DNA from: a virus
Lineage: Duplodnaviria; Heunggongvirae; Uroviricota; Caudoviricetes
IMG/VR virus record: IMGVR_UViG_3300022758_000225
Coordinates: 1 to 22,421 of that record
Direction: 5' to 3' (one strand)
DNA length: 22,421 bases
This document shows positions 1-18,583 of the stretch, piece after piece. A program made the position numbers and the translations under genes. Each line of letters starts with the position of its first letter. The stretch's first letter is position 1. Under the pieces are notes generated by a model. The model was not told where the DNA came from. It did not search any database and saw nothing but the letters and a program-made list of their open reading frames with translations.

Positions 1-73
1 TGATTATTTGCCACCCATGCCCCCCAACGTTCAAGAACCATTTGAATATCACGCATCAACTGTCTCCACAAAA

Positions 74-487
74 TCAGGCCAGCACGCCAGTTGCCAGCGC
101 ACGATCGATAAAACGAAATATCAGCTCCAGCTGGGAGCCATACTTCTCTTCAAATGCCACGATATCCGCATGCAGCTCGTCGTGATGCTTTCTGCACAGA
201 GGCAACACAAAGAGGTCATGCGCTTTTGTACCCATTCCACCCTGACCGTGGCCTATCAGGTGGTGGGGATCATCAGCAGGCTTTCCACAACATGCACACG
301 GCTGCGTCTTAACCCAGCGCGTGTACTTTTCGTTAACCCAGCGGCGACGTTTTGGGCGTAACATAAAAGACTCCGGCGACTCCGGATCCACTTTCAGCGC
401 CAGCACCTTTTTCGCTTTATTCTGGATGATGCTGGTGGCCGGAACCGAAGGAACAAGGTCACTCTCCCGGGGTGACAGACGGCACAA
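74..487 (-). CDS. HNH-like Cys/His-motif protein (DUF968-like); probably the C-terminal part of a split ydfU-like nin-region gene
   Basis: 137-aa ORF with CACCG...HH...LPLCRKHHDELH motif typical of HNH/DUF968 proteins. Track start is TTG at 487. Overlaps upstream ORF 459..1070 by 29 nt in a different frame. Confidence 0.5.
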   Translation of the reverse strand: MCRLSPRESDLVPSVPATSIIQNKAKKVLALKVDPESPESFMLRPKRRRWVNEKYTRWVKTQPCACCGKPADDPHHLIGHGQGGMGTKAHDLFVLPLCRKHHDELHADIVAFEEKYGSQLELIFRFIDRALATGVLA

Positions 488-1070
488 CAGGCTTCGGTAA
501 TCTCAGTGCCTTACGGGCTGCACTTTCAGGTAAGGCATCCGCCAGATCATTACGAACCAGCCACCAGCACAGTTCCGGCATTGTCACAACGTGACTATCA
601 TCAAAACCGAGATCCCGACGCACGACGGACAACACCCAGCGGGCACAGTTATCCGTTGCCATTGATTCCAGCCGTTCCGTGAACTGATCGCGCAGCTGGT
701 TATCGCAGTGCCAGCACAGACGGATTGCGCCCGGCGCGTGACGCATTGTGGTCATGTTCTCGCTGTGCCAGTCGGAATGAGGCCACTGGCAGCCTTTTTC
801 ACGAAGTAACCAGCTTTCAAGACATTCCACGCCACCAGCACGACGGATCACTGCCTCATTGCGGAACACGGCCCGAACGGCAGGATCATCCGCCAGCGGT
901 TGTGATGCCGCCGGAACAGCACCACTGGCGAAAGATGAATAACTTTCCGGCTCAGGCTCCAGCAGGACACGCCCCTGCATAAACAGAGGCATCAGCTCTG
1001 AACCAGGCCTGAACAATACGATCCCCATACGCGGGGCAATTTCAGGGGTCAGTAGTGCTCTCACGGTCAC
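459..1070 (-). CDS. nin-region protein, probable N-terminal part of the same ydfU-like gene
   Basis: 203-aa ORF with GTG start at 1070, directly after the KilA-N gene stop (1072-1074). Family assignment is from recall only. Confidence 0.4.
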   Translation of the reverse strand: MTVRALLTPEIAPRMGIVLFRPGSELMPLFMQGRVLLEPEPESYSSFASGAVPAASQPLADDPAVRAVFRNEAVIRRAGGVECLESWLLREKGCQWPHSDWHSENMTTMRHAPGAIRLCWHCDNQLRDQFTERLESMATDNCARWVLSVVRRDLGFDDSHVVTMPELCWWLVRNDLADALPESAARKALRLPKPVVPSVTPGE

Positions 1071-1071
1071 C

Positions 1072-1881
1072 TCAATGAACGGTATCGAGCAGCTTTAACA
1101 GCTCAGGGAATCGGGATTCGAAGAAATGCGGCTGCGTCTCGCGCGGATTTGCGGGACTAGTGATGTTCTTGCCGAACATGCAGCCTTTCGCGGTCAGCGA
1201 CCAGAATTTTTTGATGTTGTTAATCGCGGTACGGCTGTATCGTTCGCGTTGTTCAACGATCCCCAGCTTCACCATCTGGTGATATGCCTGATTAGCCGTC
1301 AGGCGGATACCATACTGTTTCAGCAGTGCACTCAGTGACAGTGTCGGGCGACTTGAGCCATCGTGTGCATCAGCAGGAGCATCAATGGCATAGCGCGGTG
1401 CCAGATTCGGTAAGCCAACAGCCTCCTGGAGTTTCTGACAGGCACCAAGCACAGATGAGTTAGACAGGTTTAACTCCCGACGCATAAAGTCCAGCAGAAT
1501 CACACCAGCCTGCATCTTGTCAGCAGCCTGTCCGGATAATTTTTCCGGTGCGCTGGTTACCATGTCGAAAGTACGGATCACCTTCAGATGGAATGACGGG
1601 CTGATCCACATTGCATAGGCATACACCAGTTCCTTGCAGACATAAGTTCCCCGTTCATTTCCCCCATGAATCACACTCACCGGGTCAACACCCAAATTCT
1701 GGGTGTTGGTCAATTCATGAACAAGTTCAACAGTTTGTTGGCTGGAAAGAAACTTTCCTGGCTCCTTGGTTCTGGCATTTGCACCAGATGCTACTGCTGC
1801 GCGATGCAGATCGTTCAGGCTGTAACGCCCATAAGCATCACGACGAACTTCAATACCATCAATGACCATCAGATTATTCAT
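1072..1881 (-). CDS. KilA-N domain protein / phage antirepressor-like
   Basis: N-terminus MNNLMVIDGIEVRRDAYGRYSLNDLHRAA is KilA-N-like. ATG at 1881 is preceded by AGGAGA; the track ORF extends to 1914. Confidence 0.7.
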   Translation of the reverse strand: MNNLMVIDGIEVRRDAYGRYSLNDLHRAAVASGANARTKEPGKFLSSQQTVELVHELTNTQNLGVDPVSVIHGGNERGTYVCKELVYAYAMWISPSFHLKVIRTFDMVTSAPEKLSGQAADKMQAGVILLDFMRRELNLSNSSVLGACQKLQEAVGLPNLAPRYAIDAPADAHDGSSRPTLSLSALLKQYGIRLTANQAYHQMVKLGIVEQRERYSRTAINNIKKFWSLTAKGCMFGKNITSPANPRETQPHFFESRFPELLKLLDTVH

Positions 1882-1900
1882 ACTTCGTTTCTCCTCTTGA

Positions 1901-2290
1901 TCAGGCGGCTGCACCCGCCGTTTTCTCGTACTTACTGATGGTGATCTCGACCTTCCCTTTCGGGATAACCGGTCCCCACTCCACCAGCATTCTTTTCACC
2001 TGTCTGTCGTCTTCCCACACACCCGCGTGGGTCAACGCGTCAAACAGCGCCTTGTTATAGTTGTCCAGATCGCGGATCCGGTTATCCGGAGGAAACAACA
2101 CGATCTCCACTGAAGCAGGTGCCGACGTTGGTTTTGGCAGACGACGTAACTGCTCAACTATTGCTGCGCACGCCGCGCTCTGAAATTTTCGCCCCGCCGC
2201 GCTTATCAGGCTCTTACCAGCAAATGCCCCTTTGTTGGGGTGTCGCCAGTACGTGTTCACGCTGGGCGGGAAAGGCAGGATCAGCTTCAT
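1901..2290 (-). CDS. rusA: Holliday-junction resolvase RusA
   Basis: 129 aa with PPSVNTYWRH, DLDNYNKALFDAL and GVWEDDRQV motifs matching E. coli RusA. Start overlaps the upstream stop as ATGA. Confidence 0.85.
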   Translation of the reverse strand: MKLILPFPPSVNTYWRHPNKGAFAGKSLISAAGRKFQSAACAAIVEQLRRLPKPTSAPASVEIVLFPPDNRIRDLDNYNKALFDALTHAGVWEDDRQVKRMLVEWGPVIPKGKVEITISKYEKTAGAAA

Positions 2291-2613
2291 ACTTTCAGGC
2301 CTCTCTCATGTAACCAGTGGGTTGCACGCAGCCTGGCGTTTTCCTCACCGGCAAGCAGTGAGCGGATAATCCCGACCGCCTCGCTGTCGTCGTCCTTCAC
2401 CGCGGTATGAAGAGTGATACCCCGGGCCACGCCACGCTTTATCGTGATGACGCCTTTTTTCTCCAGTGCGCGAAGATGTTCCACCGCTGCATTCACTGAA
2501 CGGTATCCCAGCATGGTTGCCACCTCCTGATTGGTTGGCGGGAAGCCACGTTCTTTCTGGTAAGAAATCAGCATATCCAGCACCTGCTGCTGGCATTGAG
2601 TTAACGTCGTCAT
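2287..2613 (-). CDS. LexA N-terminal DNA-binding-domain protein lacking the S24 peptidase domain
   Basis: 108 aa; QQQVLDML...GFPPTNQEVATMLGYRSVNAAVEHLRALEKKGVI aligns by eye with the LexA winged-HTH domain. No Ala-Gly cleavage site or Ser/Lys dyad. ATGA overlaps at both ends. Confidence 0.7.
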   Translation of the reverse strand: MTTLTQCQQQVLDMLISYQKERGFPPTNQEVATMLGYRSVNAAVEHLRALEKKGVITIKRGVARGITLHTAVKDDDSEAVGIIRSLLAGEENARLRATHWLHERGLKV

Positions 2614-3263
2614 GCCGCCATCTCCCTGACCAGTTTTTCCGCCTGCTGGCGAACCTGCGCCAGAAACGCCTCACCACATGCCTCAAGTTCATCGCGCCCG
2701 ATGTAGCTGATTGCCGGTCCCTTCCAGGTCTTGTCGAAAACAGCAATAGCACCAGCGAAGAAAGCGCCTGTCGGCACCTGCTTCTCGTCCTTCGGTATAA
2801 ACCAGGCAGGCAGTTCAAAACCAATACGCCCGCGAATAAAAGCAATATGATCTGCATCTTCCGGCCACCACACTTCGCTGGTGGCCGCTTTGATCAGGAA
2901 AACATAGCGCCCGCCCTTATCACGCATGGCACTGGCATGTTTCATGATGTAACGCATGCCGGTGATGTATTGCCCCTCATGCTGACTGGCGCGGCTGTAT
3001 GGGGGATTACCAAAGGCAGCACCTTTAAGCTCCGCAAGACGTTCTGACCAGTCATGCGCCAGCGCGTTATCTTCCGCCGTGTAATACGCGGCACATTTGG
3101 CGTTATCACCGTCAGTAAACAGATCCAGAACAAACGGGCCAAACAGAGTGTTAATTCCCCAGAAAATGTTGTCCGGCGTGCGCCACTGATCGCCCACTTC
3201 CTTCAGTTCATGGGCTGGTTTGTTCCGCAGTTCCACCAGTGCCTGACAATATTTATTACTCAT
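2610..3263 (-). CDS. phage N6-adenine DNA methyltransferase (Dam-like orphan methylase)
   Basis: Contains the NPPY motif (FGNPPYS) and a DLFTDGDN region typical of phage N6-adenine methyltransferases. Preferred start is ATG at 3263, overlapping the upstream stop as TAATG; the track gives a GTG at 3296. Confidence 0.8.
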   Translation of the reverse strand: MSNKYCQALVELRNKPAHELKEVGDQWRTPDNIFWGINTLFGPFVLDLFTDGDNAKCAAYYTAEDNALAHDWSERLAELKGAAFGNPPYSRASQHEGQYITGMRYIMKHASAMRDKGGRYVFLIKAATSEVWWPEDADHIAFIRGRIGFELPAWFIPKDEKQVPTGAFFAGAIAVFDKTWKGPAISYIGRDELEACGEAFLAQVRQQAEKLVREMAA

Positions 3264-3745
3264 TAAGCCCCCACGTAATTCCCTGACAGATACCACTCTT
3301 CACCCGATGCTGCGCGCTTGCTGCTTTTCTGTAAGCACTGCTCACGACGCGCCAGAAAATTGTTTCGTTCTGGCTGGGAGTGGCTTTCACGGAATGCCGC
3401 CATCCACACCGTTGCAGCACGACGGTATAAGCCCCTGGACTCCAGTTCTTCAGCCTGGCGAATCACCCGGGGATCGTTAGTGCCGACATAGAAATTGCGC
3501 ACAGGTCTGGTTTCACGAACTGGTTGTGGTTCCGGCTCCTGCGCTCTCTCAGTCAGGCGCGGGAAATGTCTGCGTGTATCTCCTTCACAACGGTGAGCCA
3601 CACGCCCACTCTGACGTAACTTGCTTGCTGACTGCAGAACGCGCTGTCGTGAGTAACCTGCAAAAGCATCCGCAATGTCTCCGAAAGTACACCCCGGATG
3701 GGCTTCAATGAATTTCTGAACTTCATTCAAAAGACTCATGATCAC
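3263..3745 (-). CDS. putative DNA-binding regulator with PerC-like C-terminal region
   Basis: 160-aa ORF in an operon of overlapping genes. The segment RVIRQAEELESRGLYRRAATVWMAAF resembles PerC-family proteins, from recall only. Confidence 0.4.
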   Translation of the reverse strand: MIMSLLNEVQKFIEAHPGCTFGDIADAFAGYSRQRVLQSASKLRQSGRVAHRCEGDTRRHFPRLTERAQEPEPQPVRETRPVRNFYVGTNDPRVIRQAEELESRGLYRRAATVWMAAFRESHSQPERNNFLARREQCLQKSSKRAASGEEWYLSGNYVGA

Positions 3746-4332
3746 CCCCTGAATCCTACCGGGATCTGGCTGTAGTCCACGTTGTCGTAACTGGCTTTGA
3801 AGTACGGGTCTTCACGTTTTTCTGTGTGCGTGCTGACGGACGGCGATAAGCGCAGGGAAAGCTCATCCCATTTTTCCCTCAACTTCGACGGGCTGAGCAC
3901 GTTACGGTACCAGAACGGATCGCGGCTGACGCGGCTGTACATCTCGCAGATTTGTTTGTGAGTACGACCATCCTGCACACACATCAGGCGAATTTCGTTT
4001 GCCCATGCTGTCCAGTTCGGTTCTTTGGGACGAACCACCTCGCCGTCACATTCGGCGGCCTGCTCGTACAGGGCGATGATTTTTTTCCAGAGCCACTGTG
4101 CGCAGGTCAAATCATCCTGCGTTCCCCACTGGCGCTTTTTAGGGCTGAATACAACCGCATCAGGATGGCGAGTTAAAAACTCCTGTTCAGCCGTTTGCGT
4201 GTCCGGTTGCGAAGCGTCCGGACGAGAAGAGGTTTTATTCTCTGTAGTAATCTCTGTTGTATTCTCTGTAAGATCATTGGGCCATTTTGACCCGATGACA
4301 GCGTGTCGTTTTGAACCAATGGATCGTGTCAT
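3742..4332 (-). CDS. replication protein, C-terminal part (O-like linker plus C-terminal domain)
   Basis: 196 aa. N-terminus is low-complexity (TENTTEITTENKTSS) and is encoded by the iteron region. ATG overlaps the stop of the replisome-organizer ORF as ATGA. Function inferred from position and iteron linkage. Confidence 0.5.
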   Translation of the reverse strand: MTRSIGSKRHAVIGSKWPNDLTENTTEITTENKTSSRPDASQPDTQTAEQEFLTRHPDAVVFSPKKRQWGTQDDLTCAQWLWKKIIALYEQAAECDGEVVRPKEPNWTAWANEIRLMCVQDGRTHKQICEMYSRVSRDPFWYRNVLSPSKLREKWDELSLRLSPSVSTHTEKREDPYFKASYDNVDYSQIPVGFRG

Positions 4333-4408
4333 TTGCGCCCATCCATCAGGTCACTTTGACCCGATGGAGAAGTGCATTTTGACCTGATGGATTCGTTCAC
4401 TTTGACCT
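4285..4408. repeat. origin-of-replication iterons (about 5 direct copies of TTTGAC(C/A)YGATGG plus one inverted copy)
   Basis: Direct copies at 4285-4298, 4309-4322, 4355-4367, 4377-4390 and a partial copy at 4400-4408. An inverted copy (ccatcaggtca) lies at 4343-4353. Spacing is 22-24 bp. They sit inside the replication gene, as ori-lambda does inside O. Confidence 0.6.
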
Positions 4409-4733
4409 CTTCTAAAAGCTCACTTTCATAGTTGATCGTGTAGAAGTTGGTCATGTCACGCTTCGATTTATTGAGTTGCTCGCGACGCAAAACCCCAAGT
4501 GATTTCAGGCTTGCAAATGTGCGTTTCAGAGTGGACTCTGACCAGAACGGAAACTGCTCCAGCCACTGTTCTGTCGTGTTATAAACCCAGCGAATTCCGC
4601 CATGCTCAGTGCCTGAATTCGTTTCATTCAGCCAGTAATGAAGCTGCTGCAACACAATTGCCTCATTCAGACCAATACGGCATGCAAGATCACGATTTAT
4701 CACAATGGGCTGGGATGTCATTAACAGGCTCAT
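4329..4733 (-). CDS. phage replisome organizer, N-terminal iteron-binding domain (lambda O-like)
   Basis: 134 aa; the N-terminus [39 protein letters not shown] resembles replisome-organizer N-terminal domains. Its 3' end is encoded by the iterons. Confidence 0.6.
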   Translation of the reverse strand: MSLLMTSQPIVINRDLACRIGLNEAIVLQQLHYWLNETNSGTEHGGIRWVYNTTEQWLEQFPFWSESTLKRTFASLKSLGVLRREQLNKSKRDMTNFYTINYESELLEEVKVNESIRSKCTSPSGQSDLMDGRK

Positions 4734-4902
4734 GACCGACCTCTATTTCCCTGAATTTACGACGAAACTGTTCGAGCGGACTGAAGCATTCATGTTCATA
4801 GCCTTCACGGAGGTAGATAACCCGTTGTGTTTCCGGCTCCCAACGAATGACTCTGACGGGCACTCCGTAGTGATCTTTGAACCAGCGGTTAACTTGTCGC
4901 AA
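4690..4902 (-). CDS. small phage protein (DUF4222-like)
   Basis: 70-aa ORF with TTG start at 4902 preceded by a strong SD (AAGGAGA at 4906-4913 on the minus strand). Motif [12 protein letters not shown]. Its 3' end overlaps the replication gene start by 44 nt. Confidence 0.45.
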
Positions 4903-5081
4903 AGGACTGTCTCCTTCTGCCGGTTGAAATCACCCACAGCCCACTCTGCAAAGCTGTGGGTTACAATTTCCCTGTCACCTGGTACATTCACTGCATAGCA
5001 ATACTCCACCTTCGCTTTTCCACCCGGTACAGGAAGCGCAATCAGTTGCGAGCGACGGTAGTGTGTTGTTAAACTGTTCAT
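4743..5081 (-). CDS. hypothetical protein (gene model uncertain)
   Basis: ATG at 5081 with GGAG about 10 nt upstream. The 3' two-thirds overlaps the DUF4222-like gene in another frame and looks low-complexity, so the true product is probably shorter. Confidence 0.2.
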
Positions 5082-5147
5082 GCGTTAGTTTCTCCACAAC
5101 CAGAAGCAATCGACGCCACGACGCCCGGAGCTGCACACTCGCGGGCG

Positions 5148-5636
5148 TCACTCTTTTCTGGAGCGCAAAAGATTTTGTAGACCAGTGCTGCATGCTCCTG
5201 GAGCTTCGCAAATTGACAGATACAACTCATCATTAATTGCTGTCTGCTCGTGTGGCTCCACTACCCCATCTTCGATTGCCGAACGAATCTGCTTTGAGTA
5301 ACTCCCGATCTGTTCGATGACTTCCAGCAGGCGCTGGTTTATATCGGCGTTCTCTACTTCCTCAATTTCAGGAAGCGATACAAACACCCCACCAGCAGAC
5401 TGTGCGACAGCATCCGCAATGTAGTGAGTGCCAGCCGCGCGCTGTAAAATCATTGCCCATCCCAGCGGGAAAATCTGATCGCCATCTGCACGAAGGCGGT
5501 TGAATAAAGCGTTCTCTGTTACATCCAGCCACTCAGCAGCTTCAGCGTAACCCCCCGGCAACGCCGCGATAGTTTTTCTGACAGCTTTCACGTACCACTC
5601 AGGCTGTTTTTCCACTTTCCAGTGATGATTACCCAC
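5148..5636 (-). CDS. CII-like regulatory protein (CP76 / YdaT-like family)
   Basis: 162 aa with GTG start preceded by AGGAGG. Lies immediately downstream of the cro-like gene, opposite the repressor. Family assignment is from recall only. Confidence 0.5.
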   Translation of the reverse strand: MGNHHWKVEKQPEWYVKAVRKTIAALPGGYAEAAEWLDVTENALFNRLRADGDQIFPLGWAMILQRAAGTHYIADAVAQSAGGVFVSLPEIEEVENADINQRLLEVIEQIGSYSKQIRSAIEDGVVEPHEQTAINDELYLSICEAPGACSTGLQNLLRSRKE

Positions 5637-5732
5637 GGCTTACCTCCTGTTCCTGTGGTTTAAAACCCATTCTGGTTTTGGCTAGATTGAAAACGTGCCG
5701 GATAAAGAATCTGCATTTCGCTGATTTCACCC

Positions 5733-5921
5733 TTAAAAAAATTGGCCAGACGTTCTGCAAGATCGATAGATGGAATTTGTTCCAGTCTTTTCAATACGAC
5801 TCAGCGTCGCTGGATTGACCTGAACGCCAGCAGCAACATGCTGCAAAGTAAATCCGTGCGCCTTACGCACATTTCCGTAATGGTGATTGCATATTACCTC
5901 CACATATTGCGTGATGAGCAT
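5733..5921 (-). CDS. Cro-like HTH (XRE-family) regulator
   Basis: HTH signature LQHVAAGVQVNPATLSRIEKTG. Divergent from the repressor gene. Internal ATG at 5921 chosen because the track's TTG at 6017 would overlap the cI start; no obvious SD, so possibly leaderless. Confidence 0.45.
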   Translation of the reverse strand: MLITQYVEVICNHHYGNVRKAHGFTLQHVAAGVQVNPATLSRIEKTGTNSIYRSCRTSGQFF

Positions 5922-5970
5922 ATTATTTTCACGCAAATATTTTGCGCAAGTTGATTTGCTTAACGCGCAA
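5907..5970. promoter_or_regulatory. OR-like operator cluster and divergent promoters between the cro-like and cI-like genes
   Basis: Three 15-bp palindromic sites centred about 24 bp apart: TTGCgtgatgaGCAt (5907-5921), cGCAAatattTTGCg (5932-5946), TTGCttaacgcGCAA (5956-5970). TTGATT at 5951-5956 and TAATAA at 5982-5987 are candidate promoter hexamers. Confidence 0.5.
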
Positions 5971-5990
5971 TAAAGAAATGTAATAAACGC

Positions 5991-6684
5991 ATGAACATAG
6001 GAAACCGAGTCAGACAACTTCGCCAGGCGAAGAACATGAAAATCGCCGATCTCGCTGAAGCAATAGGAGTGGATGCGGCGAATATCTCACGCCTGGAAAC
6101 AGGTAAGCAGAAACAATTCACTGAACAAGCCCTGAGTAATATTGCCAGGAGCTTAGGTGTTGATATTGCTGATCTCTTTACCTCAGACGTCAAAAGTAAT
6201 ACTGTATGTAAAAACAGTATTAGTGAGGATGTTGCGCAGGTGAAGGATGTATTCCGTATTGAAATGCTGGATGTCAGTGCCAGTGCGGGAAATGGCCTTA
6301 TCCAGGGCGGTGATGTCATTGATGTGATTCATGCCATTGAATACAGAACTGATAATGCTGTATCGATGTTTTGGCGGACGGCCAGCCAATCACATTAAAG
6401 TTATCAACGTTCGTGGGGACAGTATGTGTCCAACCATTGAGCCAGGAGATCTCATCTTCGTTGATGTCAGTATCAATCAGTTTGATGGAGATGGTATCTA
6501 TGTATTTGGTTTTGATGATAAAATTTATGTCAAGCGACTGCAAATGATACCTGACAAACTACTGGTGATTTCTGATAACCAGATTTACCGTGAATGGGGA
6601 ATTACCAGCGAAAATGAACACCGGTTTATGGTCTTTGGAAAGGTCTTAATCAGCCAGTCACAAACCCTTAAGCGACACAATTAA
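5991..6684 (+). pseudogene. cI-like prophage repressor (XRE HTH plus S24 LexA-like peptidase domain) interrupted by a frameshift
   Basis: ORF 5991..6398 carries the HTH (IADLAEAIGVDAANISRLETGKQ) and an Ala-Gly site (SASAGNG). ORF 6331..6684 in the +1 frame carries the S24 motifs GDSMCPTIEPGD and KRL. Removing one T from the T4 run at 6369-6372 joins them as ...NAVSMFGGRPANHIKV.... Confidence 0.7.
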
Positions 6685-6704
6685 CCCTTACCTCCTCATC
6701 AATT

Positions 6705-6726
6705 AGCCACCCAAAGGTGGCTTTTC
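6705..6726 (+). terminator. intrinsic terminator downstream of the cI-like gene
   Basis: Stem agccacc / ggtggct with loop caaa, followed by TTTT, about 20 nt after the cI stop at 6682-6684. Confidence 0.5.
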
Positions 6727-6739
6727 ATTACCCTTTAAA

Positions 6740-6792
6740 TTGCATATCTCGCAACAAAAACACTTGCATAATGCGCAACTTCATTTTATCTT
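6740..6792 (+). promoter_or_regulatory. OL-like operators with candidate PL promoter
   Basis: Two TTGC-N7-GCAA sites (6740-6754 and 6764-6778), 24 bp centre to centre, the same motif as the OR sites. TTGCAT at 6764-6769, a 17-bp spacer and TATCTT at 6787-6792 form a candidate rightward promoter. Confidence 0.4.
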
Positions 6793-7222
6793 TCTTTCCA
6801 GACAAACAAACAAGGTACTAACAAAATTTGGTTGTAACACGGCGTATGGCACATGCGTCGTTAGCGGTCTGGGGACGTTAAAGGGGACAATCCACTCCTT
6901 GCTCGGGCAAACAAACCAGGTAGCCGGAATGTGCAAGTCAATGATGATGCTGATAAGACGCCTAACCAGCGTGGCGGTTCGGTTTGACACCTGGGAAGAG
7001 ACCAGGGTGCAACGATGAGGGCATTTATGGAACCGCGACAAAGTGTGGTGCCGTAACTGGCTAAGTGCTCTCAGCGTTGTGGTGAATGCGCAGGCTGATG
7101 CGCGAAAGACATTGCAGCTATTGCGGAAAAGAGCTGTTCGGCGGGGCAATTAAACGCCCGTGAGAGTCTGAAATAACCGCAAGCCGGAGATCAGCACCGG
7201 TCACCACAACAGCCACTGCTTT

Positions 7223-7270
7223 AGCGGTACCAGTTTGTACACTTGCTTCCGGCTGGTACCGCTCTTTTTT
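7223..7270 (+). terminator. intrinsic terminator in the early-left leader (tL-like)
   Basis: Perfect 11-bp stem agcggtaccag (7223-7233) / ctggtaccgct (7253-7263) with a 19-nt loop, followed by T6 at 7265-7270. Confidence 0.5.
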
Positions 7271-7407
7271 ACAAAACAGAGAAGAGCATCACCGGACGAC
7301 GGGCTCATAACCCAATCCATCCGGGCGGCTGCCACCGCAGGTGTTCTTCTCTGTTTTGTGGAGAAACCAACCGACCTTGCAGGGTCGATATGATGAGGAG
7401 CAGCAAA

Positions 7408-7770
7408 ATGGCTAGCGTACGCAGTACTGATGTGCAGGCATTTATCGGGGAGCTGGACGGCGGCGTATTTGAAACCAAAATCGGCGCTGTTCTCAGTGAA
7501 GTCGCTTCCGGTGTGATGAACACGAAAAACAAAGGTAAGGTCTCGCTCAACCTGGAAATCGAACCATTTGATGAGAACCGTGTGAAAATCAAACACAAAC
7601 TCTCATATGTTCGCCCGACTAACCGCGGGAAAATTTCCGAAGAAGACACCACCGAAACGCCGATGTATGTCAATCGCGGTGGTCGCCTGACTATTCTGCA
7701 GGAAGACCAGGGACAATTACTGACTCTTGCCGGTGAACCTGACGGAAAACTCCGCGCAGCAGGTCATTAA
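7408..7770 (+). CDS. hypothetical early-left protein (first gene after the leader; yfdP-like by position and size)
   Basis: ATG at 7408 preceded by GAGGAG at 7395-7400; 120 aa. No similarity to lambda N. Track ORF 7243..7770 is an upstream extension without an RBS. Confidence 0.5.
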   Translation: MASVRSTDVQAFIGELDGGVFETKIGAVLSEVASGVMNTKNKGKVSLNLEIEPFDENRVKIKHKLSYVRPTNRGKISEEDTTETPMYVNRGGRLTILQEDQGQLLTLAGEPDGKLRAAGH

Positions 7771-7835
7771 TATCGTTCTTAATTAACTGATTATTTATCT
7801 CATCACTGAATATCTTAATATAGTGAGGACTTATT

Positions 7836-8659
7836 ATGTCTCAGAACTTAGACGCAACCGCAATTAATCAAATCCATGCCCTTATTTCTGCTCAGGGTGT
7901 TAATGAAATTATCAGTAAGATTGGTGCCGATGCTGTGGCATTGCCTGAGAATTTCCGCATTCATGATCTGGAAAAATTTAATTTAAATCGCTTCCGTTTC
8001 CGTGGTGCGCTTTCCACTGCCAGCATCGATGACTTTACCCGTTATTCTAAAGATCTTGCAGATGAAGGCACCCGCTGCTTTATCGATGCCGATAATATGC
8101 GAGCCATCAGTGTGCTTAACCTGGGTACTATTGATGAACCAGGTCACGCAGATAACACCGCCACTCTCAACTGAAAAAGACAGCACCGTTCTCTGCCCTG
8201 CTGTCTGTTAATGGCGAGCGTAACTCCCAGAAGTCACTGGCAGAATGGATTGAAGACTGGGCCGACTATCTTGTGGGCTTTGATGCTAATGGTGACGCTA
8301 TTAAGGCAACAAAAGCGGCTGCGGCAGTCCGTAAAATCACGATTGAAGCAAACCAGACCGCTGATTTTGAAGATAATGACTTCAGCGGCAAACGCTCTTT
8401 GATGGAGTCTGTCGAAGCGAAAACCAAAGACATTATGCCAGTAGCATTTGAGTTTAAATGCGTTCCGTTTGAAGGCCTGAAAGAACGTCCGTTTAAATTA
8501 CGCCTCAGCATTATCACTGGTGATCGTCCTGTACTGGTTCTGCGCATTATTCAGCTGGAAGCGGTGCAGGAAGAAATGGCTAACGAATTTCGTGATCTGC
8601 TTGTTGAGAAATTCAAAGACAGCAAAGTAGAAACCTTTATTGGTACTTTCACCGCCTGA
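7836..8659 (+). pseudogene. DUF2303-like (yfdQ-like) gene split by a frameshift
   Basis: N-part 7836..8174 (frame 0) stops at 8172-8174. The C-part frame is open from 8156 and continues to 8659 (track ORF begins at GTG 8273). The two frames overlap in 8156-8172; joined length is about 274 aa. Confidence 0.5.
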
Positions 8660-8786
8660 TTTCATTACTGCAAATGCCCCTGCGGGGGCATTTATGGAAA
8701 CGTAATTGACTCAATAATCGCCAGATGGTGAGGGCTTCCTTTTACCAGAATTCAGCGCGGTGCAGCGCATATACGTGGAGAACAAA

Positions 8787-9323
8787 ATGTCATTTATTAA
8801 AACTTTTTCCGGGAAGCATTTTTATTATGACAGGATAAATAAAGACGACATCGTTATTAACGATATCGCGGTTTCTCTTTCAAATATCTGTCGCTTTGCA
8901 GGACATCTTTCACATTTCTACAGCGTCGCCCAACATGCGGTGCTTTGCAGCCAACTGGTACCGCAGGAATTTGCTTTTGAAGCGTTAATGCATGATGCAA
9001 CAGAAGCGTATTGCCAGGACATCCCGGCGCCACTGAAACGCCTTCTTCCTGACTATAAACGGATGGAAGAAAAAATAGACGCCGTAATCCGTGAGAAATA
9101 CGGGTTACCACCAGTTATGAGTACACCCGTGAAATATGCCGATCTCATCATGCTGGCAACCGAACGTCGCGATCTCGGGCTTGATGATGGCTCTTTCTGG
9201 CCTGTACTGGAAGGCATCCCGGCAACAGAGATGTTCAACGTGATTCCACTGGCTCCGAGCCATGCCTACGGGATGTTTATGGAACGTTTTAACGAGTTAT
9301 CGGAGTTACGCAAATGCGCATGA
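8787..9323 (+). CDS. HD-domain phosphohydrolase (yfdR-like)
   Basis: His-Asp motif in EALMHDATEAYCQDIP plus HLSHFYSVAQH. ATG at 8787 preceded by GGAG gives 178 aa; the track ORF starts at 8760. Confidence 0.65.
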   Translation: MSFIKTFSGKHFYYDRINKDDIVINDIAVSLSNICRFAGHLSHFYSVAQHAVLCSQLVPQEFAFEALMHDATEAYCQDIPAPLKRLLPDYKRMEEKIDAVIREKYGLPPVMSTPVKYADLIMLATERRDLGLDDGSFWPVLEGIPATEMFNVIPLAPSHAYGMFMERFNELSELRKCA

Positions 9324-9730
9324 ATGTTTTCGAAATGGAAGGGTTTCTTCGCGGGAAATGTGTACCACGAGATCTGAAAGTGAATGAAACAAATGCTGAG
9401 TATCTGGTGCGTAAATTTGCTGAAGCGGAGGCCAAGTGCGCGGCGCTGGCGGCGGAGAATGAGCTGGCTCGTAAAGCTGTTCAGGCATTCTGTGAGGTTG
9501 TTGGCGACAACACTGAGATTATCTCCGTGTTGGTTGGGCGAGATGGCGTTCTGGTTATTTTGGAGGCCATGAAGGCAACAGGAAATATGTCAGCCACCGA
9601 CGCTTTCCTGGCTGAAGTACGTGCGCAGGGTGTTGAATTGTTGCGCGAGCATCCTGCTATCCAGATTTGCTCTTTAACGCACGTATGCGACGAGTTCGCC
9701 GCCCAGCTTCGTAAAGGAGGCAACCAGTGA
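9314..9730 (+). CDS. hypothetical protein
   Basis: 138-aa ORF. ATG at 9314 preceded by GGAG; overlaps the HD gene stop by 10 nt. Confidence 0.45.
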   Translation: MRMNVFEMEGFLRGKCVPRDLKVNETNAEYLVRKFAEAEAKCAALAAENELARKAVQAFCEVVGDNTEIISVLVGRDGVLVILEAMKATGNMSATDAFLAEVRAQGVELLREHPAIQICSLTHVCDEFAAQLRKGGNQ

Positions 9731-10026
9731 CTGTATGTCTTATTGATAAACGTCGACGTGGGCAACAAATACCATCTGTTGAAATGCCGAATCACACATG
9801 GTTTTGCGTACTTGATATCGATGGTATGGATACGTTGATCGACACTCGTCATTACTGCGATACCGCAACAGCTACTCCGGCGAAAGCAAAGAAAATGGCT
9901 GCTCTGATAGAAAACTGGACTCCACCTGATGGTTGGTGCAATGGGAATGATCGGGATTGGCATGAAAAAATGAAGAGCTATATCTGCGATTTCTTACGTA
10001 AATGCAACGGATTCAGGGTGATGTGA
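9727..10026 (+). CDS. hypothetical Cys-rich small protein
   Basis: 99 aa. GTG start overlapping the upstream stop as GTGA, preceded by a strong AGGAGG at 9713-9718. Confidence 0.45.
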   Translation: MTVCLIDKRRRGQQIPSVEMPNHTWFCVLDIDGMDTLIDTRHYCDTATATPAKAKKMAALIENWTPPDGWCNGNDRDWHEKMKSYICDFLRKCNGFRVM

Positions 10027-10027
10027 C

Positions 10028-10564
10028 ATGAGCAATATTGACTATCAGGCACTGCGTGAGGCGGCAGAACGTGCAATTCCGGCAATGGAACGCCTGTTAA
10101 TGTTGCCAGCTGATGATGATTTGTTAAGTGAACAGGAACTTAAAGATTACGGTGTGGATATTGATGCGCTCAACGCCTTCAAATTTCTGAACGGACCAGA
10201 AACCGTGCTGGCACTGCTGGATGAACGGGAAAGAAACCAGCAATACATCAAACGCCGTGACCAGGAGAACGAGGATATTGCGCTTACGGTTGGGAAGCTG
10301 CTCGTTGAGCTTGAAGCAGCAAAATCAAAACTCAACGAGCAGCGCGAGTATTACGAGGGAGTTATCTCTGATGGGTGCAAGCGTATTGCTGAACTGGAAG
10401 CGCGGGAAGTTCAATTACCGACTCGCTACGACCTTCGATATGGACACCCGATAAATGCAGATGAGCGACATGTCATGATACCTAAAGAAAATGGCAGTTG
10501 GCTTTACCTGATTGACCTGGAACACGCATTACGCGTCGCTGACATTCGCATCAAAGGAGAGTGA
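10028..10564 (+). CDS. Ead/Ea22-like early protein
   Basis: 178 aa. N-terminus MSNIDYQALREAAERA and a coiled-coil-like middle section resemble Ea22-like proteins of lambdoid early-left regions, from recall only. Confidence 0.45.
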   Translation: MSNIDYQALREAAERAIPAMERLLMLPADDDLLSEQELKDYGVDIDALNAFKFLNGPETVLALLDERERNQQYIKRRDQENEDIALTVGKLLVELEAAKSKLNEQREYYEGVISDGCKRIAELEAREVQLPTRYDLRYGHPINADERHVMIPKENGSWLYLIDLEHALRVADIRIKGE

Positions 10565-10565
10565 T

Positions 10566-10829
10566 ATGGCAACTTTGACAAAAAAAGAACAAGCATGGTT
10601 GAGCGAATTACAGGACGTTCTTGATCGCTGCCCATCACCGAAAAAAATTGGTTTTTACACCATTGGCGATAAAAGCATTTACCTGTATGACCTGCGCCGC
10701 ATGGATGAAATCATGGAGGCTCTTGATAATCGTTCGTCAATGGATTGGTGTGTTGCTGTTCATGATATGAATGCCGGATTTGATGAAAAGATTTTATTCC
10801 CCTCATCAGTTGAAAGTACAGCAGGATAA
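10566..10829 (+). CDS. hypothetical protein
   Basis: ATG at 10566 two nt after the upstream stop, preceded by AAAGGAGAG; 87 aa. The track ORF extends upstream to 10512. Confidence 0.45.
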   Translation: MATLTKKEQAWLSELQDVLDRCPSPKKIGFYTIGDKSIYLYDLRRMDEIMEALDNRSSMDWCVAVHDMNAGFDEKILFPSSVESTAG

Positions 10830-10839
10830 GGACTAACAC

Positions 10840-11412
10840 ATGACCACTATTACCAAAGAGCGACTGCTGACAATCAGGCAGTGGCGCGAAACATACGGAC
10901 CTGGTAGCAACGTTGTACTGCCAGCAGAAGAAGCGGAAGAACTGGCACGAATTGCTCTGGCATCGCTGGAAGCAGAACCTGTAAGCCAAACTTACAACTT
11001 GCCACAAACGCACTTTGAACAGGTTGCTGACCTTTACGAAATGCAATTTGATGACGGACGCACTTGTGCCTTTCATACTGATGCGCAAAAGGCTGCGCAA
11101 TGGCTTCGGGCATGCGACGGAAACAGGGTTCAGGAATACGTGAAACTGGAGCGACTGCAGAACGCGCTATCGGGCAACTCTCCGGTAATTCCGGATAGTT
11201 GGATAAGCTGTAGTGAGCGAATGCCGGAAAAGAATCAGAACGTGCTTATTTCGGTGAATTTCGATAGCTCTCTGGTTGAACCGCTAATATGCTCCGCACG
11301 CTATACCGGAAGCACCTTTCGGCGCGGAGATGCAACGATTAAGCCGGGTAATGGTATTGAGCAGGCAACCCACTGGATGAAATTACCGGAACCACCGCAG
11401 GAGGTGAAGTGA
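10840..11412 (+). CDS. DUF551-domain protein
   Basis: C-terminal WISCSERMP...THWMKLPEPP matches the DUF551 signature common in lambdoid prophages. Confidence 0.6.
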   Translation: MTTITKERLLTIRQWRETYGPGSNVVLPAEEAEELARIALASLEAEPVSQTYNLPQTHFEQVADLYEMQFDDGRTCAFHTDAQKAAQWLRACDGNRVQEYVKLERLQNALSGNSPVIPDSWISCSERMPEKNQNVLISVNFDSSLVEPLICSARYTGSTFRRGDATIKPGNGIEQATHWMKLPEPPQEVK

Positions 11413-11984
11413 TGAACAACTTAATGATCGACCTTGAGACGATGGGGAAAAATAAGGATGCACCGATCGTTTCCATTGGCGCGGTGTTCTTCACTCCAGA
11501 AACCGGAGACATCGGACAAGAATTCTATACGGTTGTTAGCCTGGAAAGTGCTATGGGGCAAGGAGCTACACCTGACGGCGATACCATCCTGTGGTGGTTG
11601 AAACAAAGCCCTGAAGCACGAGCTGCAATCTGTATTGATGATACTTTGTCGATCAGCGATGCTCTCTCAGAACTAAATCATTTCATTAACCGGCACGCAG
11701 CCAATACGAAATATTTAAAAGTCTGGGGTAACGGGGCCACCTTCGACAACGTAATTTTACGTGGAGCTTATGAGCGAGCAGGACAAATCTGCCCGTGGGC
11801 ATACTGGAATGACCACGATGTACGCACGATCGTTACGCTTGGGCGTTCCATCGGATTCGACCCCAAAATGGACATGCCTTTCGATGGCGAACGGCACAAC
11901 GCCCTGGCTGATGCTCGTCATCAGGCAAAATATGTTTCCGCTATCTGGCAGAAATTAATTCCTGCCACCAGCACAGAATTATGA
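11412..11984 (+). CDS. DnaQ-like 3'-5' exonuclease (DEDDh family)
   Basis: MIDLETMG (Exo I motif) and ERHNALADARHQ (Exo III H-x4-D motif). AGGAGG at 11399-11404. Confidence 0.65.
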   Translation: MNNLMIDLETMGKNKDAPIVSIGAVFFTPETGDIGQEFYTVVSLESAMGQGATPDGDTILWWLKQSPEARAAICIDDTLSISDALSELNHFINRHAANTKYLKVWGNGATFDNVILRGAYERAGQICPWAYWNDHDVRTIVTLGRSIGFDPKMDMPFDGERHNALADARHQAKYVSAIWQKLIPATSTEL

Positions 11985-12020
11985 TTTTCCCGGGTGCAGC
12001 CGGTTTTGATGGAGAAAATT

Positions 12021-12302
12021 ATGAACACCTTGTTTTTACTGATGGCTGAATTCAATACCCCTAACATTGAACTCTCAGCAGTTAGCCAAAAGTACTTTGG
12101 CATGAGTCCAGCCACGGCAGAAGCAAAAGCAAACGCTTGTAAGTTGCCCGTTCCAACATATCGCATCGGCACATCACAAAAAGCAAAACGTTGCATCAAT
12201 ATTCAGGATCTTGCGGAATACATAGACAAAAGACGAGAAGAAGGACGTATCGAGTGGGAACAGGTCAGAACAGGCAAACAGAAGGGCAAAGAACATCACT
12301 AA
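12021..12302 (+). CDS. PrtN-family DNA-binding protein (pyocin-activator / excisionase-like)
   Basis: MNTLFLLMAEFN...IQDLAEYIDKRR closely resembles the N-terminus of P. aeruginosa PrtN. ATG at 12021 preceded by GGAG. Confidence 0.6.
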   Translation: MNTLFLLMAEFNTPNIELSAVSQKYFGMSPATAEAKANACKLPVPTYRIGTSQKAKRCINIQDLAEYIDKRREEGRIEWEQVRTGKQKGKEHH

Positions 12303-12304
12303 AG

Positions 12305-12331
12305 AAAAAACCCGCCTAAAGGCGGGTTTTC
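12305..12331. terminator. bidirectional intrinsic terminator
   Basis: aaaaaaCCCGCCtaaaGGCGGGtttt: GC-rich stem flanked by an A-run and a T-run, between convergent genes ending at 12302 and 12350. Confidence 0.6.
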
Positions 12332-12349
12332 AAAAAGCACCAGCTATGA

Positions 12350-12523
12350 TCATGCTGCTTTGCGACGACGAAGCTTACCCTGCTGCTCTTTACCAGAGAC
12401 AGTAGCGTGAGTGAACGCATTAGGAGCAGCCTTCATCAGAACTTCAACAGCAGCACCCATACCTGCGAATGCTTTCATTGTGTCGAACTTAACCTGTGGC
12501 TTGGTTGCTTTTTGATCTTTCAT
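12350..12523 (-). CDS. small lysine-rich hypothetical protein (57 aa; not in the supplied ORF track)
   Basis: Hand translation of the minus strand gives MKDQKATKPQVKFDTMKAFAGMGAAVEVLMKAAPNAFTHATVSGKEQQGKLRRRKAA. ATG at 12523 preceded by GGGAG at a 7-nt spacing. Confidence 0.4.
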   Translation of the reverse strand: MKDQKATKPQVKFDTMKAFAGMGAAVEVLMKAAPNAFTHATVSGKEQQGKLRRRKAA

Positions 12524-12719
12524 AGAAAACTCCCGAGACAGTAAAGGCGTCTCTAACCCTCTCTTTAAAGCTAGCTTGTTTAGCTAACTTATGCCAATCG
12601 ATCATGTCGATTGGTGACATCGTTTCTTAGTAGTTTAAGCACAAAACGACTGCCATAGATGTACCTTTAAGGTAATCTGGACGGGTATCCTACAATTTGT
12701 AGACCCTTCTCGTCTATAC

Positions 12720-13256
12720 CTACTGAGCAAATTTAAGAAAGATATCCTGCAGCTCATCAATGACTGCAGACATCACATAACCGCACTGTTCCATGCGGAA
12801 ACCAAAAGACTCGTAATACTGCACCAGTTCTGGTACTGGCTCTACAATGTGGACAACTTTACATTCAACAGCTTTACAAAATATAAAAGCACTCATAAGA
12901 GTGAGTAAAACCATGCGCCCTTTCAATGGGTGAGATTCATCTTCTCTAGAAAACCTTTCGATCATATGGATACGAAAGATGTTTTCTTCAACCCCATAAA
13001 CACAAATTGCTGCTCCTGATGGTATTCCCTGAACCCGACCTTGCTGAACAAGTTTTATGCAGAACTCATACTTTTCTCTGGAGTTGCCATAGGTGCTTAA
13101 CGCATAGTCCCATTCAAGCTCACCATAGCCACCACACAGAATCTTGTAATCATCATCACTGAGCGGACCAACAGCAAGAGGTAAGCCGACATGATCAATA
13201 ATCAACTGGATATTGTTACGTACAGATTGACCTATCTCGTCTAGGGTAAGCATCAT
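12720..13256 (-). CDS. GNAT-like acetyltransferase-fold protein (moron candidate)
   Basis: 178 aa. KGRMVLLTLMS and ELVQYYESFGF resemble GNAT motifs A and B. Opposite strand to its neighbours and visibly AT-rich. Fold call is tentative. Confidence 0.45.
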   Translation of the reverse strand: MMLTLDEIGQSVRNNIQLIIDHVGLPLAVGPLSDDDYKILCGGYGELEWDYALSTYGNSREKYEFCIKLVQQGRVQGIPSGAAICVYGVEENIFRIHMIERFSREDESHPLKGRMVLLTLMSAFIFCKAVECKVVHIVEPVPELVQYYESFGFRMEQCGYVMSAVIDELQDIFLKFAQ

Positions 13257-13536
13257 AGACTCTCAAGCGGAACACTAAAAATCTCATTATATCTCATTCT
13301 GATGCCCCGCATGGATTACACCTTGAAATGAAAACACCGGGTTCCCAATAGGCTCCCACAAAGTGTATAACTACTTGTTTTTCAAAAACGGTACATCCTA
13401 TCGAGCATAGGAGCAATGCTAAACCGAGAACTCCAGTAAGCGCCAGTTTTTTCAGGCATCACGCTGGTTTGATTAGTTTTCTGTATTTCAGGATTATCGT
13501 GCATTTTTGAACATTTCAGGCTATTTTTCTCGCGTT

Positions 13537-17895: not shown

Positions 17896-17906
17896 ATTCA
17901 CCCCAC

Positions 17907-17932
17907 AAAAAAGCCCGCCTGAACCGGCGGGC
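17907..17932 (-). terminator. intrinsic terminator downstream of lom
   Basis: Minus strand reads GCCCGCC-ggttca-GGCGGGC followed by TTTTTT, ending just upstream of the stf SD. Confidence 0.5.
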
Positions 17933-17959
17933 TGTCATAACACTGTGTTACCTGGCTAA

Positions 17960-18559: not shown

Positions 18560-18583
18560 AATTACCTCTCGCTTTTCTGCAAT

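What the first reader, a model, noticed from the sequence alone, without database searches (positions are those of the whole stretch)
4285..4408. Replication origin iterons sit exactly at the junction of two replication ORFs
Five direct copies and one inverted copy of a ~13-bp motif lie where ORF 4329..4733 ends and ORF 3742..4332 begins (ATGA overlap at 4329-4332). Three direct copies translate as S-I-G/R-S-K: one in the upstream ORF's frame, two in the downstream ORF's frame. The copy at 4355-4367 matches the downstream frame but is followed directly by TGA. The locus therefore looks like one lambda-O-type initiator gene, with ori in its linker, that is now split or genuinely bipartite. No P-like or DnaC-like helicase loader follows it.
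Basis: partly seen in the sequence, partly recalled or inferred. Interest (0 to 1): 0.6.

Follow-up and report, generated by a model that had tools for sequence, protein, structure and literature searches.

The report
Phage origin inside one frameshifted gene
The repeats are a real lambda-style phage replication origin lying inside a single initiator gene, and the apparent split into two genes comes from one missing base that is almost certainly a sequencing error, so the finding is ordinary.

Summary
A phased array of 23-bp iterons followed by three AT-rich 12-mers lies at 4232-4412 on the minus strand, at the ATGA junction of ORFs 4329..4733 and 3742..4332.

The two ORFs are one gene. Together they give, residue for residue, the 330-aa O-like initiator that is a single ORF in phage mEp460_4F5, in E. 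coli PMV-1 and in hundreds of other genomes. The split is a 1-nt deletion (A4 to A3) in the core of the fourth iteron.

None of the 161 records (159 of the 5,426 complete E. coli genomes searched) that carry this segment has the deletion. Over 13.4 kb the window differs from four independent genomes by 10 single-base indels and no substitutions. The same kind of indel also breaks the repressor, cro-like, cII-like, DUF968, YfdQ and J genes. That is the signature of assembly error, not biology.

The architecture is textbook lambdoid: a winged-helix N domain, a disordered linker that encodes the origin, and a C domain homologous to lambda O. No helicase loader is encoded, which is normal for this family.

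One side lead: the protein ends in ...SQIPVGFRG, the same C-terminal tail as host DnaT. Tail-bearing initiators stand alone or sit directly upstream of DnaC-type loaders, never lambda P. This suggests they recruit host DnaB-DnaC.

The parts
3742..4733 (-). One O-like replication initiator gene (330 codons when intact), interrupted here by a 1-nt deletion
   Evidence: It aligns end to end with the intact gene of mEp460_4F5 at 98% identity with a single gap. The intact translation equals ORF1+ORF2 with no residue lost. PMV-1 annotates one 993-nt CDS, WP_021038220.1.
4332..4334 (-). A3 run on the coding strand (A4 in all relatives): the site of the 1-nt deletion. It creates TGA (4329-4331) and leaves the in-frame Met codon (4330-4332) as the start of ORF2
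   Evidence: All 161 E. coli records (159 genomes) carrying the 81-nt segment have 82 nt here; none matches exactly.
4407..4733 (-). Winged-helix N-terminal DNA-binding domain (residues 1-109), the presumed iteron binder
   Evidence: The AF2 model has pLDDT 80-95 for residues 1-109 and an H-H-b-b-H-H-b-b topology. The best PDB matches are wHTH regulators and RepA_N plasmid initiators, all weak (E >= 4.6e-3). PHROG 6493, 11233, 428 and 391 cover the N-terminal part.
4275..4412 (-). Array of six phased 23-bp iterons: 4390-4412, 4367-4389, 4344-4366, 4322-4343 (22 nt here), 4299-4321, 4275-4297. Consensus cATcaGGTCAAAaTGacccgaTc with dyad symmetry
   Evidence: The same six-unit array, with spacing 23, 23, 23, 23, 24, is present in mEp460_4F5 and HannyBb, and a phased array of the same unit in Klebsiella phage Kp4887-3.
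4232..4274 (-). AT-rich, purine-skewed segment with three tandem 12-mers (TACAGAGAATAC-like; encodes TENTTEITTENK). It is the presumed DNA-unwinding element
   Evidence: It is 70% A+T against 50% for the gene and the window. The three 12-mers are conserved in mEp460_4F5, HannyBb and Kp4887-3. Its position after the iterons matches the lambda ori layout.
3847..4200 (-). Helical C-terminal domain homologous to the lambda O C-terminal domain
   Evidence: BLASTP against lambda O gives 34% identity, E=4e-27. tblastn of lambda O hits 4188-3853, E=3e-22. The AF2 helical core has pLDDT 81-88.
3745..3822 (-). Flexible C-terminal tail EKREDPYFKASYDNVDYSQIPVGFRG. The last 9 residues match the extreme C-terminus of E. 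coli DnaT, and the last codons carry the Shine-Dalgarno sequence of the next gene
   Evidence: The tail is predicted to be disordered.
3263..3745 (-). Downstream PerC/YfdN-like gene. It occupies the position of lambda P and is not a helicase loader
   Evidence: Pfam PerC E=8.5e-9; PHROG 1324 'transcriptional activator'; PGAP annotation in PMV-1.

Best explanation
Positions 3742-4733 (minus strand) hold a single gene for a lambdoid O-like replication initiator that carries its own origin.

**Architecture.**
- An N-terminal winged-helix domain.
- A disordered linker whose DNA is the origin: six phased 23-bp dyad-symmetric iterons followed by an AT-rich block of three 12-mers.
- A helical domain homologous to the lambda O C-terminal domain.
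- A flexible tail.

**Inferred mechanism, by analogy with lambda.** Initiator molecules bind the iterons through the winged helix and wrap the DNA. The adjacent AT-rich block melts, and the C-terminal part brings in the host helicase.

**The split.** The two-ORF appearance comes from loss of one A from an A4 run inside iteron 4. In the intact gene an in-frame Met codon follows that run, so the deletion produces AAATGA and two ORFs that together keep every residue. The deletion is private to this sequence. It is one of many single-base homopolymer indels in the window, so it is most probably a sequencing or assembly error, not a biological split.

**Helicase loading.** No phage loader is encoded. 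The initiator ends in a DnaT-like tail (...SQIPVGFRG-COOH). I infer that this tail recruits the host DnaB-DnaC complex.
For: **One gene.**
- PHROG 391 is split across the two ORFs.
- The alignment with mEp460_4F5 has a single 1-nt gap, and the intact 330-aa translation equals ORF1+ORF2.
- PMV-1, N56, 2022E04-002 and ST95-32 all annotate one 993-nt CDS.
- Nearly all of the 120 listed homologues of ORF2 that cover it fully are 321-330 aa, apart from a few partial records.
- In 44 phage records one tblastn place covers at least 80% of the intact protein, and every listed row is a single aligned piece.

**Artefact.**
- The window differs from four independent genomes over 13.4 kb by 10 private 1-nt indels and 0 private substitutions. 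Most of the indels change the length of a short run of one base.
- More such indels lie in gene J, which reads 984 aa here against 1232 aa.
- They also break the DUF968, YmfL/cII-like, cro-like, cI-like and YfdQ genes.
- None of the 161 E. coli records carrying the junction segment has A3.
- The few public contigs with A3 mostly come from assemblies full of other single-base deletions, some recurring at identical positions.

**Origin.**
- The motif is enriched and phased.
- The array and the 12-mers are conserved down to 50% protein identity in a Klebsiella phage.
- SfIV has a different N domain and different iterons.
- The layout parallels the annotated lambda ori.
- The linker is predicted to be disordered.

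**C domain.** It is homologous to lambda O.

**No loader.**

**Tail.**, with gene contexts.
Against: - I cannot see the reads behind this window, so a real private frameshift is not excluded.
- One public contig with the A3 allele (L015, ERR12767404) has no other indel in 1.3 kb.
- Eight of the window's 10 private indels are insertions, whereas the junction change is one of only two deletions.
- Iteron binding, origin function and the role of the tail are inferred, not shown.
- The N-domain fold matches are weak (best E=4.6e-3).
Confidence: 0.85

Rival explanations
1. The 1-nt deletion is a real mutation in this phage. The initiator would then be made as two polypeptides: the N-terminal iteron binder, and the C-terminal domain reinitiated at the overlapping ATGA. 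This gives either a replication-defective phage or a functional two-piece initiator.
For: The ATGA overlap keeps every residue and would allow translational coupling. Six public contigs carry the same A3 allele, and one of them is otherwise clean.
Against: The 10:0 ratio of indels to substitutions against four genomes cannot be reconciled with real divergence. The repressor, cro-like, cII-like, J and other genes would all be broken at once. None of 161 records from complete genomes has the allele. Contigs were retrieved by exact match to the 134-aa product, which selects for this change. Most of those contigs show platform-type deletions. Separating the origin-binding domain from the recruiting domain would uncouple the two activities.
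Confidence: 0.1
2. This is a genuinely bipartite initiator: a conserved two-gene arrangement with the origin placed at the gene junction.
For: Only the appearance of this window supports it.
Against: Homologues from E. coli, Citrobacter, Salmonella, E. albertii and Klebsiella are single ORFs. The short N-terminal proteins in the database are heterogeneous truncations at different positions.
Confidence: 0.01
3. Programmed recoding (ribosomal frameshift or transcriptional slippage) at the A run restores the full-length protein from the split template.
For: The junction lies in a short A run next to a stop codon.
Against: There is no X XXY YYZ slippery heptamer. Three A residues are far too few for transcriptional slippage (established knowledge of recoding sites). 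All relatives encode the protein in one frame.
Confidence: 0.01

Closest known systems
Phage lambda O protein and ori-lambda
   Same: The origin lies inside the initiator gene, in the part that encodes the interdomain linker. Both have a phased array of dyad-symmetric iterons with spacing of about 20-24 bp, followed by an AT-rich purine-skewed block. The C-terminal domain is homologous: 34% identity, E=4e-27.
   Different: The N-terminal DNA-binding domain is unrelated at the sequence level. There are six 23-bp units instead of four 18-bp annotated iterons. No P gene follows. A C-terminal DnaT-like tail is present that lambda O lacks.
Loader-less lambdoid replication modules of SfV, SfII, SfIV, ST64B, cdtI, mEp460 and CPS-53 type. 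I recall these being called 'initiator-solo' modules in Weigel & Seitz 2006, but I could not find that term in the library.
   Same: A single initiator gene is followed by PerC/YfdN-like, Dam, LexA-like and RusA genes, with no helicase or loader gene. The C-terminal tail is the same. mEp460_4F5 is 98% identical across the locus.
   Different: SfV-type and SfIV-type initiators have other N domains (HTH_36) and other iterons. Only the C domain and/or the tail are shared, as expected for mosaic modules.
E. coli primosomal protein DnaT and the dnaT-dnaC operon
   Same: The extreme C-terminus is shared: SQIPPGFRG in DnaT and SQIPVGFRG here, 8 of 9 residues against the mEp460_4F5 variant SQIPAGFRG. 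The relative HannyBb matches 14 of 20 residues, E=9e-8. In both cases the tail is flexible (Windgassen et al. 2018, PMC5778457). In both, the tail codons are followed within a few bases by the next gene's ATG.
   Different: No DnaT N-terminal trimerisation/PriB-binding domain was detected. The body shows no significant similarity to the DnaT three-helix bundle. The gene that follows is perC-like, not dnaC.

Membership tests
Lambda O-type initiator with internal origin | N-terminal iteron-binding domain of the lambda O family (Pfam PF04492, Phage_rep_O) | tested here: not met
   Pfam finds no hit at E <= 0.1. BLASTP against lambda O finds no N-terminal similarity. The domain is a different winged helix.
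Lambda O-type initiator with internal origin | Iteron array inside the initiator's own coding sequence, in the interdomain linker | tested here: met
   Six phased 23-bp units lie at 4275-4412. They encode residues of about 108-153, which are predicted to be disordered.
Lambda O-type initiator with internal origin | AT-rich unwinding region directly after the iterons | tested here: met
   Positions 4232-4274 are 70% A+T and hold three tandem 12-mers, conserved in three lineages. Unwinding itself was not tested.
Lambda O-type initiator with internal origin | C-terminal domain homologous to the lambda O C-terminal (P-binding) domain | tested here: met
   BLASTP gives 34% identity over 148 residues, E=4e-27. 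tblastn gives E=3e-22.
Lambda O-type initiator with internal origin | Partner helicase-loader gene (P) immediately downstream | tested here: not met
   The downstream gene is PerC-like. tblastn of lambda P, DnaC, YdaV and the Gifsy-2 DnaC-like protein against the window finds nothing at E < 1.
Lambda O-type initiator with internal origin | Specific binding of the N domain to the iterons, and origin activity | not testable with these tools
   This needs EMSA or footprinting and a replication assay.
Loader-less ('solo') lambdoid replication module | One initiator gene, with no helicase or helicase-loader gene in the early operon | tested here: met
   Gene content of the identical PMV-1 region. 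The same holds in mEp460_4F5, SfIV, SfV, ST64B, cdtI, mEp390 and HannyBb.
DnaT (primosomal protein I) | N-terminal trimerisation/PriB-binding domain and C-terminal three-helix bundle | tested here: not met
DnaT (primosomal protein I) | Flexible C-terminal tail ending IPPGFRG | tested here: met
   The tail SQIPVGFRG sits at the extreme C-terminus. Relatives are closer to DnaT: HannyBb matches 14 of 20 residues, E=9e-8.
Split or bipartite initiator | Two separate genes conserved in relatives | tested here: not met

The most novel reading that the evidence does not exclude
Loader-less lambdoid initiators, including this one, may load the helicase by molecular mimicry of host DnaT. A short C-terminal motif (...[SQ/TE]-I-P-x-G-F-R-G-COOH) is shared by several proteins:
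- DnaT;
- at least three unrelated initiator bodies: O-C type, SfV type and DnaT-C type (SPN1S gp46 is 63% identical to DnaT 86-179);
- initiators that sit directly upstream of DnaC-like loader genes (Rac YdaU, Gifsy-2 O, POCJ13 gp16).

The motif would dock the initiator to the DnaC-DnaB complex. It would also mark dnaT-dnaC as a domesticated phage initiator-loader module. The motif string does not occur in any paper of the searchable library.
Probability: 0.4. Interest if true: 0.55.

Novelty: new member of a known kind. Interest (0 to 1): 0.2.

Why it matters
For the finding as written, very little: it is a standard lambdoid origin inside an O-like gene, and the intriguing split is best explained as a base-calling error. 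The practical lesson is that this window carries many homopolymer indels, so any 'split gene' or 'overlap' seen in it should be distrusted.

The origin of this initiator type (six 23-bp units plus three 12-mers) is not annotated in the phage and genome records I opened. It can now be annotated by homology in many E. coli, Citrobacter, Salmonella and Klebsiella prophages.

The side observation could matter more. If the DnaT-like tail is what lets P-less phages capture DnaB-DnaC, it would explain how a large class of temperate enterobacterial phages replicate. It would also assign a function to the so far uncharacterised flexible tail of DnaT.

Tried and rejected
- **Family and structure searches by sequence.** Pfam, NCBIfam and PDB sequence searches of the halves and of the intact protein gave nothing usable. 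Only PHROGs and direct BLASTP against lambda O were informative.
- **Literature.** Searches for 'initiator-solo' modules, for SfV replication and for a function of the DnaT tail found nothing specific. The SfIV paper only lists the module. Brezellec 2017 notes a DnaT-C domain in DopC, but not the tail.
- **Public contigs with the same allele.** Looking up the exact 134-aa product returned 9 contigs, which at first suggested an independent allele. Three of them simply end in the A4 run, and five of the six A3 contigs are full of other indels. One search timed out after three contigs.
- **Bipartite gene and programmed frameshifting.** I considered and rejected both (see the rival explanations).
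- **Tail conservation as hitch-hiking.** I considered that the tail is conserved only because it travels with the downstream perC-like gene or its Shine-Dalgarno sequence. I rejected this as the sole cause, because mEp390, cdtI, HannyBb, SPN1S and Kp4887-3 have other downstream genes and DnaT shares the residues.

Full report
**1. What is in the sequence**

On the minus strand, ORF 4329..4733 (134 aa) ends in TGA and overlaps the ATG of ORF 3742..4332 (196 aa) in the tetranucleotide ATGA.

The junction is embedded in repeats.
- The pattern CATCRGGTCAAAR occurs 8 times at up to 2 mismatches in the 22.4-kb window, against 1.8 expected. None of 100 shuffles reached 8.
- Four of those matches, three of them exact, lie on the same strand within 4285-4389.
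- The repeat finder reports a 23-nt family at 4275, 4299, 4344 and 4367, a partial copy at 4391, a perfect 13-nt inverted pair, and three tandem 12-mers at 4236-4271.

**2. The two ORFs are one gene**

- PHROG 391 ('replication initiation O-like', 298 positions) is matched at positions 1-114 by ORF1 and 132-298 by ORF2.
- Phage mEp460_4F5 matches 1301 nt around the locus at 98% identity. It differs in length by one base, GCGCAAAATGACACG against GCGCAAATGACACG here.
- Its single ORF translates to 330 aa...DLMDGRK-MTRSIGSK.... This is exactly ORF1 followed by ORF2 with no residue lost.
- In the intact gene a Met codon follows the A4 run. Deleting one A therefore gives AAA-TGA and leaves ATG-A in the resumed frame. 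That explains the neat ATGA overlap without any design.
- E. coli PMV-1, N56, 2022E04-002 and ST95-32 all annotate one 993-nt CDS here.
- ORF2 has 716 database homologues. Nearly all of the 120 listed that cover it fully are 321-330 aa proteins from E. coli, Citrobacter, Salmonella and E. albertii, apart from a few partial records.
- In 44 phage records one tblastn place covers at least 80% of the intact protein, and every listed row is a single aligned piece.
- The short N-terminal proteins in the database are heterogeneous truncations at different positions, not a conserved form.

**3. The split is almost certainly an assembly error**

- An 81-nt query across the junction finds 161 records in 159 of 5,426 complete E. 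coli genomes. None is an exact match. The best places all span 82 nt, which is the A4 form.
- Over window 1-13417, the alignment with four independent complete genomes shows 10 differences private to the window. All 10 are single-base indels (469, 4331, 5209, 5662, 5788, 5872, 5926, 6369, 7265, 8168). Most of them change the length of a short run of one base.
- There are no private substitutions, and the four genomes agree with each other at all ten sites.
- Real divergence is dominated by substitutions, so ten indels out of ten events is not credible as biology.
- By position, these indels also break other genes that are intact in the relatives: DUF968, the YmfL/cII-like gene, the cro-like gene, the cI-like repressor and YfdQ.
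- In the second part of the window, single-base run-length differences occur again in gene J, which reads 984 aa here against 1232 aa in strain N56.
- Looking up the exact 134-aa product returned nine public contigs.
  - Three of them merely end inside an A4 run.
  - Six do carry A3, but five of those six contain many other single-base gaps.
  - Of the two A3 contigs that overlap those sites (L010, L012), neither shares the window's other private indels.
  - Two of the contigs share deletions at identical positions, as expected from platform-specific errors (partial).
  - One contig (L015) has only this one gap in 1.3 kb, so a rare real allele cannot be excluded.

**4. Anatomy of the origin**

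In the intact relatives the repeats resolve into six units of 23 bp with start-to-start spacing 23, 23, 23, 23, 24 (mEp460_4F5 and HannyBb). Klebsiella phage Kp4887-3, at only 50% protein identity, carries a phased array of the same 23-bp unit.

- The consensus of 18 units is cATcaGGTCAAAaTGacccgaTc. The core C-A-A-A ... G is invariant or nearly so, and the unit has dyad symmetry (CATCGGGTCA-AAG-TGACCTGATG in unit 3).
- The window's units are 4390-4412, 4367-4389, 4344-4366, 4322-4343, 4299-4321 and 4275-4297.
- The missing base lies in the conserved CAAAATG core of the degenerate fourth unit. It shortens that unit to 22 bp.
- Directly after the array come three 12-mers (TACAGAGAATAC-like) in a 43-bp block of 70% A+T with purine skew. 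These are conserved in all three lineages.
- SfIV shares the C-terminal part but has a different N domain, and it has a different iteron set with 15-nt spacing. This is as expected if the iterons co-vary with the DNA-binding domain.
- The layout parallels the annotated lambda origin: four iterons at O codons of about 117-145, then an A-rich block.

**5. The protein**

- AlphaFold models give a confident winged-helix fold for residues 1-109, disorder for residues 110-134 of ORF1, and disorder for the first 44 residues or so of ORF2. The origin-encoding part is therefore an unstructured linker.
- After the linker come a helical core and then a disordered tail of about 34 residues.
- The best structural neighbours of the N domain are winged-helix regulators and RepA_N plasmid initiators, including a Rep-iteron DNA complex. 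All are weak, with best E=4.6e-3.
- The C half is homologous to the lambda O C-terminal domain: 34% identity, E=4e-27.
- Pfam, NCBIfam and PDB sequence searches gave nothing.
- The N domain is not of the lambda O family.

**6. No helicase loader, and a lead on how the helicase is recruited**

The gene in the position of lambda P is PerC/YfdN-like. The whole early region of the identical PMV-1 prophage has no P, DnaC or DnaB homologue. tblastn with lambda P, DnaC, YdaV and the Gifsy-2 DnaC-like protein finds nothing in the window.

The protein ends ...DYSQIPVGFRG. E. coli DnaT ends ...PDSQIPPGFRG. That is 8 of 9 residues (compared with the mEp460_4F5 variant SQIPAGFRG), and both motifs sit at the extreme C-terminus.

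Relatives tighten the link.
- The HannyBb O-like protein ends RCVNHISEPDTEIPPGFRG, which is 14 of 20 identical to DnaT 160-179, E=9e-8.
- SPN1S gp46 carries the whole DnaT C domain plus tail: 63% identity, E=3e-41.

The tail occurs on initiators with at least three different bodies. In the contexts I examined, tail-bearing initiators fall into two groups.
- Solo initiators: mEp460_4F5, SfIV, SfV, ST64B, Stx2a_WGPS2, Ayreon, mEp390, 118970_sal3, cdtI, HannyBb, SPN1S and Kp4887-3.
- Initiators directly upstream of a DnaC-like gene: Rac YdaU-YdaV, Gifsy-2 and POCJ13, just as host dnaT precedes dnaC.

Lambda O works with P and has no such tail. The lambda-type matches stop at residue 294-297.

The DnaT tail is described as a highly flexible 20-residue segment, and the review assigns it no function (Windgassen et al. 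2018, PMC5778457). The motif string appears in no paper of the library.

I infer, but have not shown, that the tail docks these initiators to DnaC-type loaders. In this phage that would be the host DnaB-DnaC complex.

One caveat: the last codons (GGATTCAGGGGGTGA) also provide the Shine-Dalgarno sequence of the next gene, here and in dnaT-dnaC. Part of the DNA-level conservation therefore has a second cause.

**7. Verdict**

The iterons are real and are the origin of an ordinary lambdoid initiator gene with an internal origin. The initiator belongs to a mosaic type with a non-lambda N domain, a lambda-O-like C domain and a DnaT-like tail.

The split that made the locus look unusual is a single-base homopolymer deletion. 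It is private to this sequence and accompanied by many others of the same kind, so it should be treated as an artefact. Interest in the finding itself is low. The tail observation is the only part that might repay further work.

Noticed in passing
window 469, 5209, 5662, 5788, 5872, 5926, 6369, 7265, 8168; about 19413, 19865, 20042: There are private single-base indels relative to otherwise identical genomes, most of them changing the length of a short run of one base. By position they split or truncate the DUF968, YmfL/cII-like, cro-like, cI-like repressor, YfdQ and J genes. Every 'split gene' in this window should be treated as suspect.
   Followed up: yes
window ~13390-13510: The end of the early-left region, identical to the right end of the PMV-1/N56 prophage up to 13402, is joined directly to about 100 nt of dusA 5' coding sequence plus the integrase. 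In strain N56 that sequence lies at the left prophage end, next to dusA. The window therefore has the attP (excised, circular or virion) gene order of a dusA-integrating phage, not an integrated prophage.
   Followed up: partly
window 3745-3771 (-), and L020 2979-3005 (-): The initiator and host DnaT share the terminal SQIPxGFRG motif. In both, the tail codons GGATTCAG(A/G)GGGT(A/G)A are followed two bases later by the ATG of the next gene (perC-like here, dnaC in the host). Rac YdaU, Gifsy-2 O and POCJ13 gp16 have the same tail followed by a DnaC-like gene beginning MKN.
   Followed up: partly
window 4690-5081 (-): Two overlapping ORFs in different frames lie just upstream of the initiator, and each has family support. 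One is a 112-aa ORF (4743..5081; PHROG 1170, E=1e-69; annotated in mEp460_4F5). The other is a 70-aa DUF4222 ORF (4690..4902; annotated by PGAP in PMV-1), which also overlaps the initiator start. One public contig (L013) has a fused 129-aa DUF4222 protein. This could be annotation conflict, overprinting or frameshifting; it is unresolved.
   Followed up: no
window 17400-19400: About 85 of the 91 substitutions against strain N56 in the tail-fibre/Lom/J part cluster in this 2-kb patch. The flanks are essentially identical, so this looks like a recombination patch in the tail-fibre region.
   Followed up: no
L013, L017, L018 (public contigs): Three independent short-read contigs end exactly in or just after the A4 run of iteron 4. 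This suggests an assembly-graph branch at that point in those samples, from run-length heterogeneity in the reads or from a mosaic junction.
   Followed up: no
L032 1778-2593 (Salmonella phage SPN1S gp46): The C-terminal 94 residues of a loader-less phage initiator are 63% identical to DnaT 86-179, E=3e-41. This fits dnaT-dnaC having arisen from a phage initiator-loader module.
   Followed up: partly
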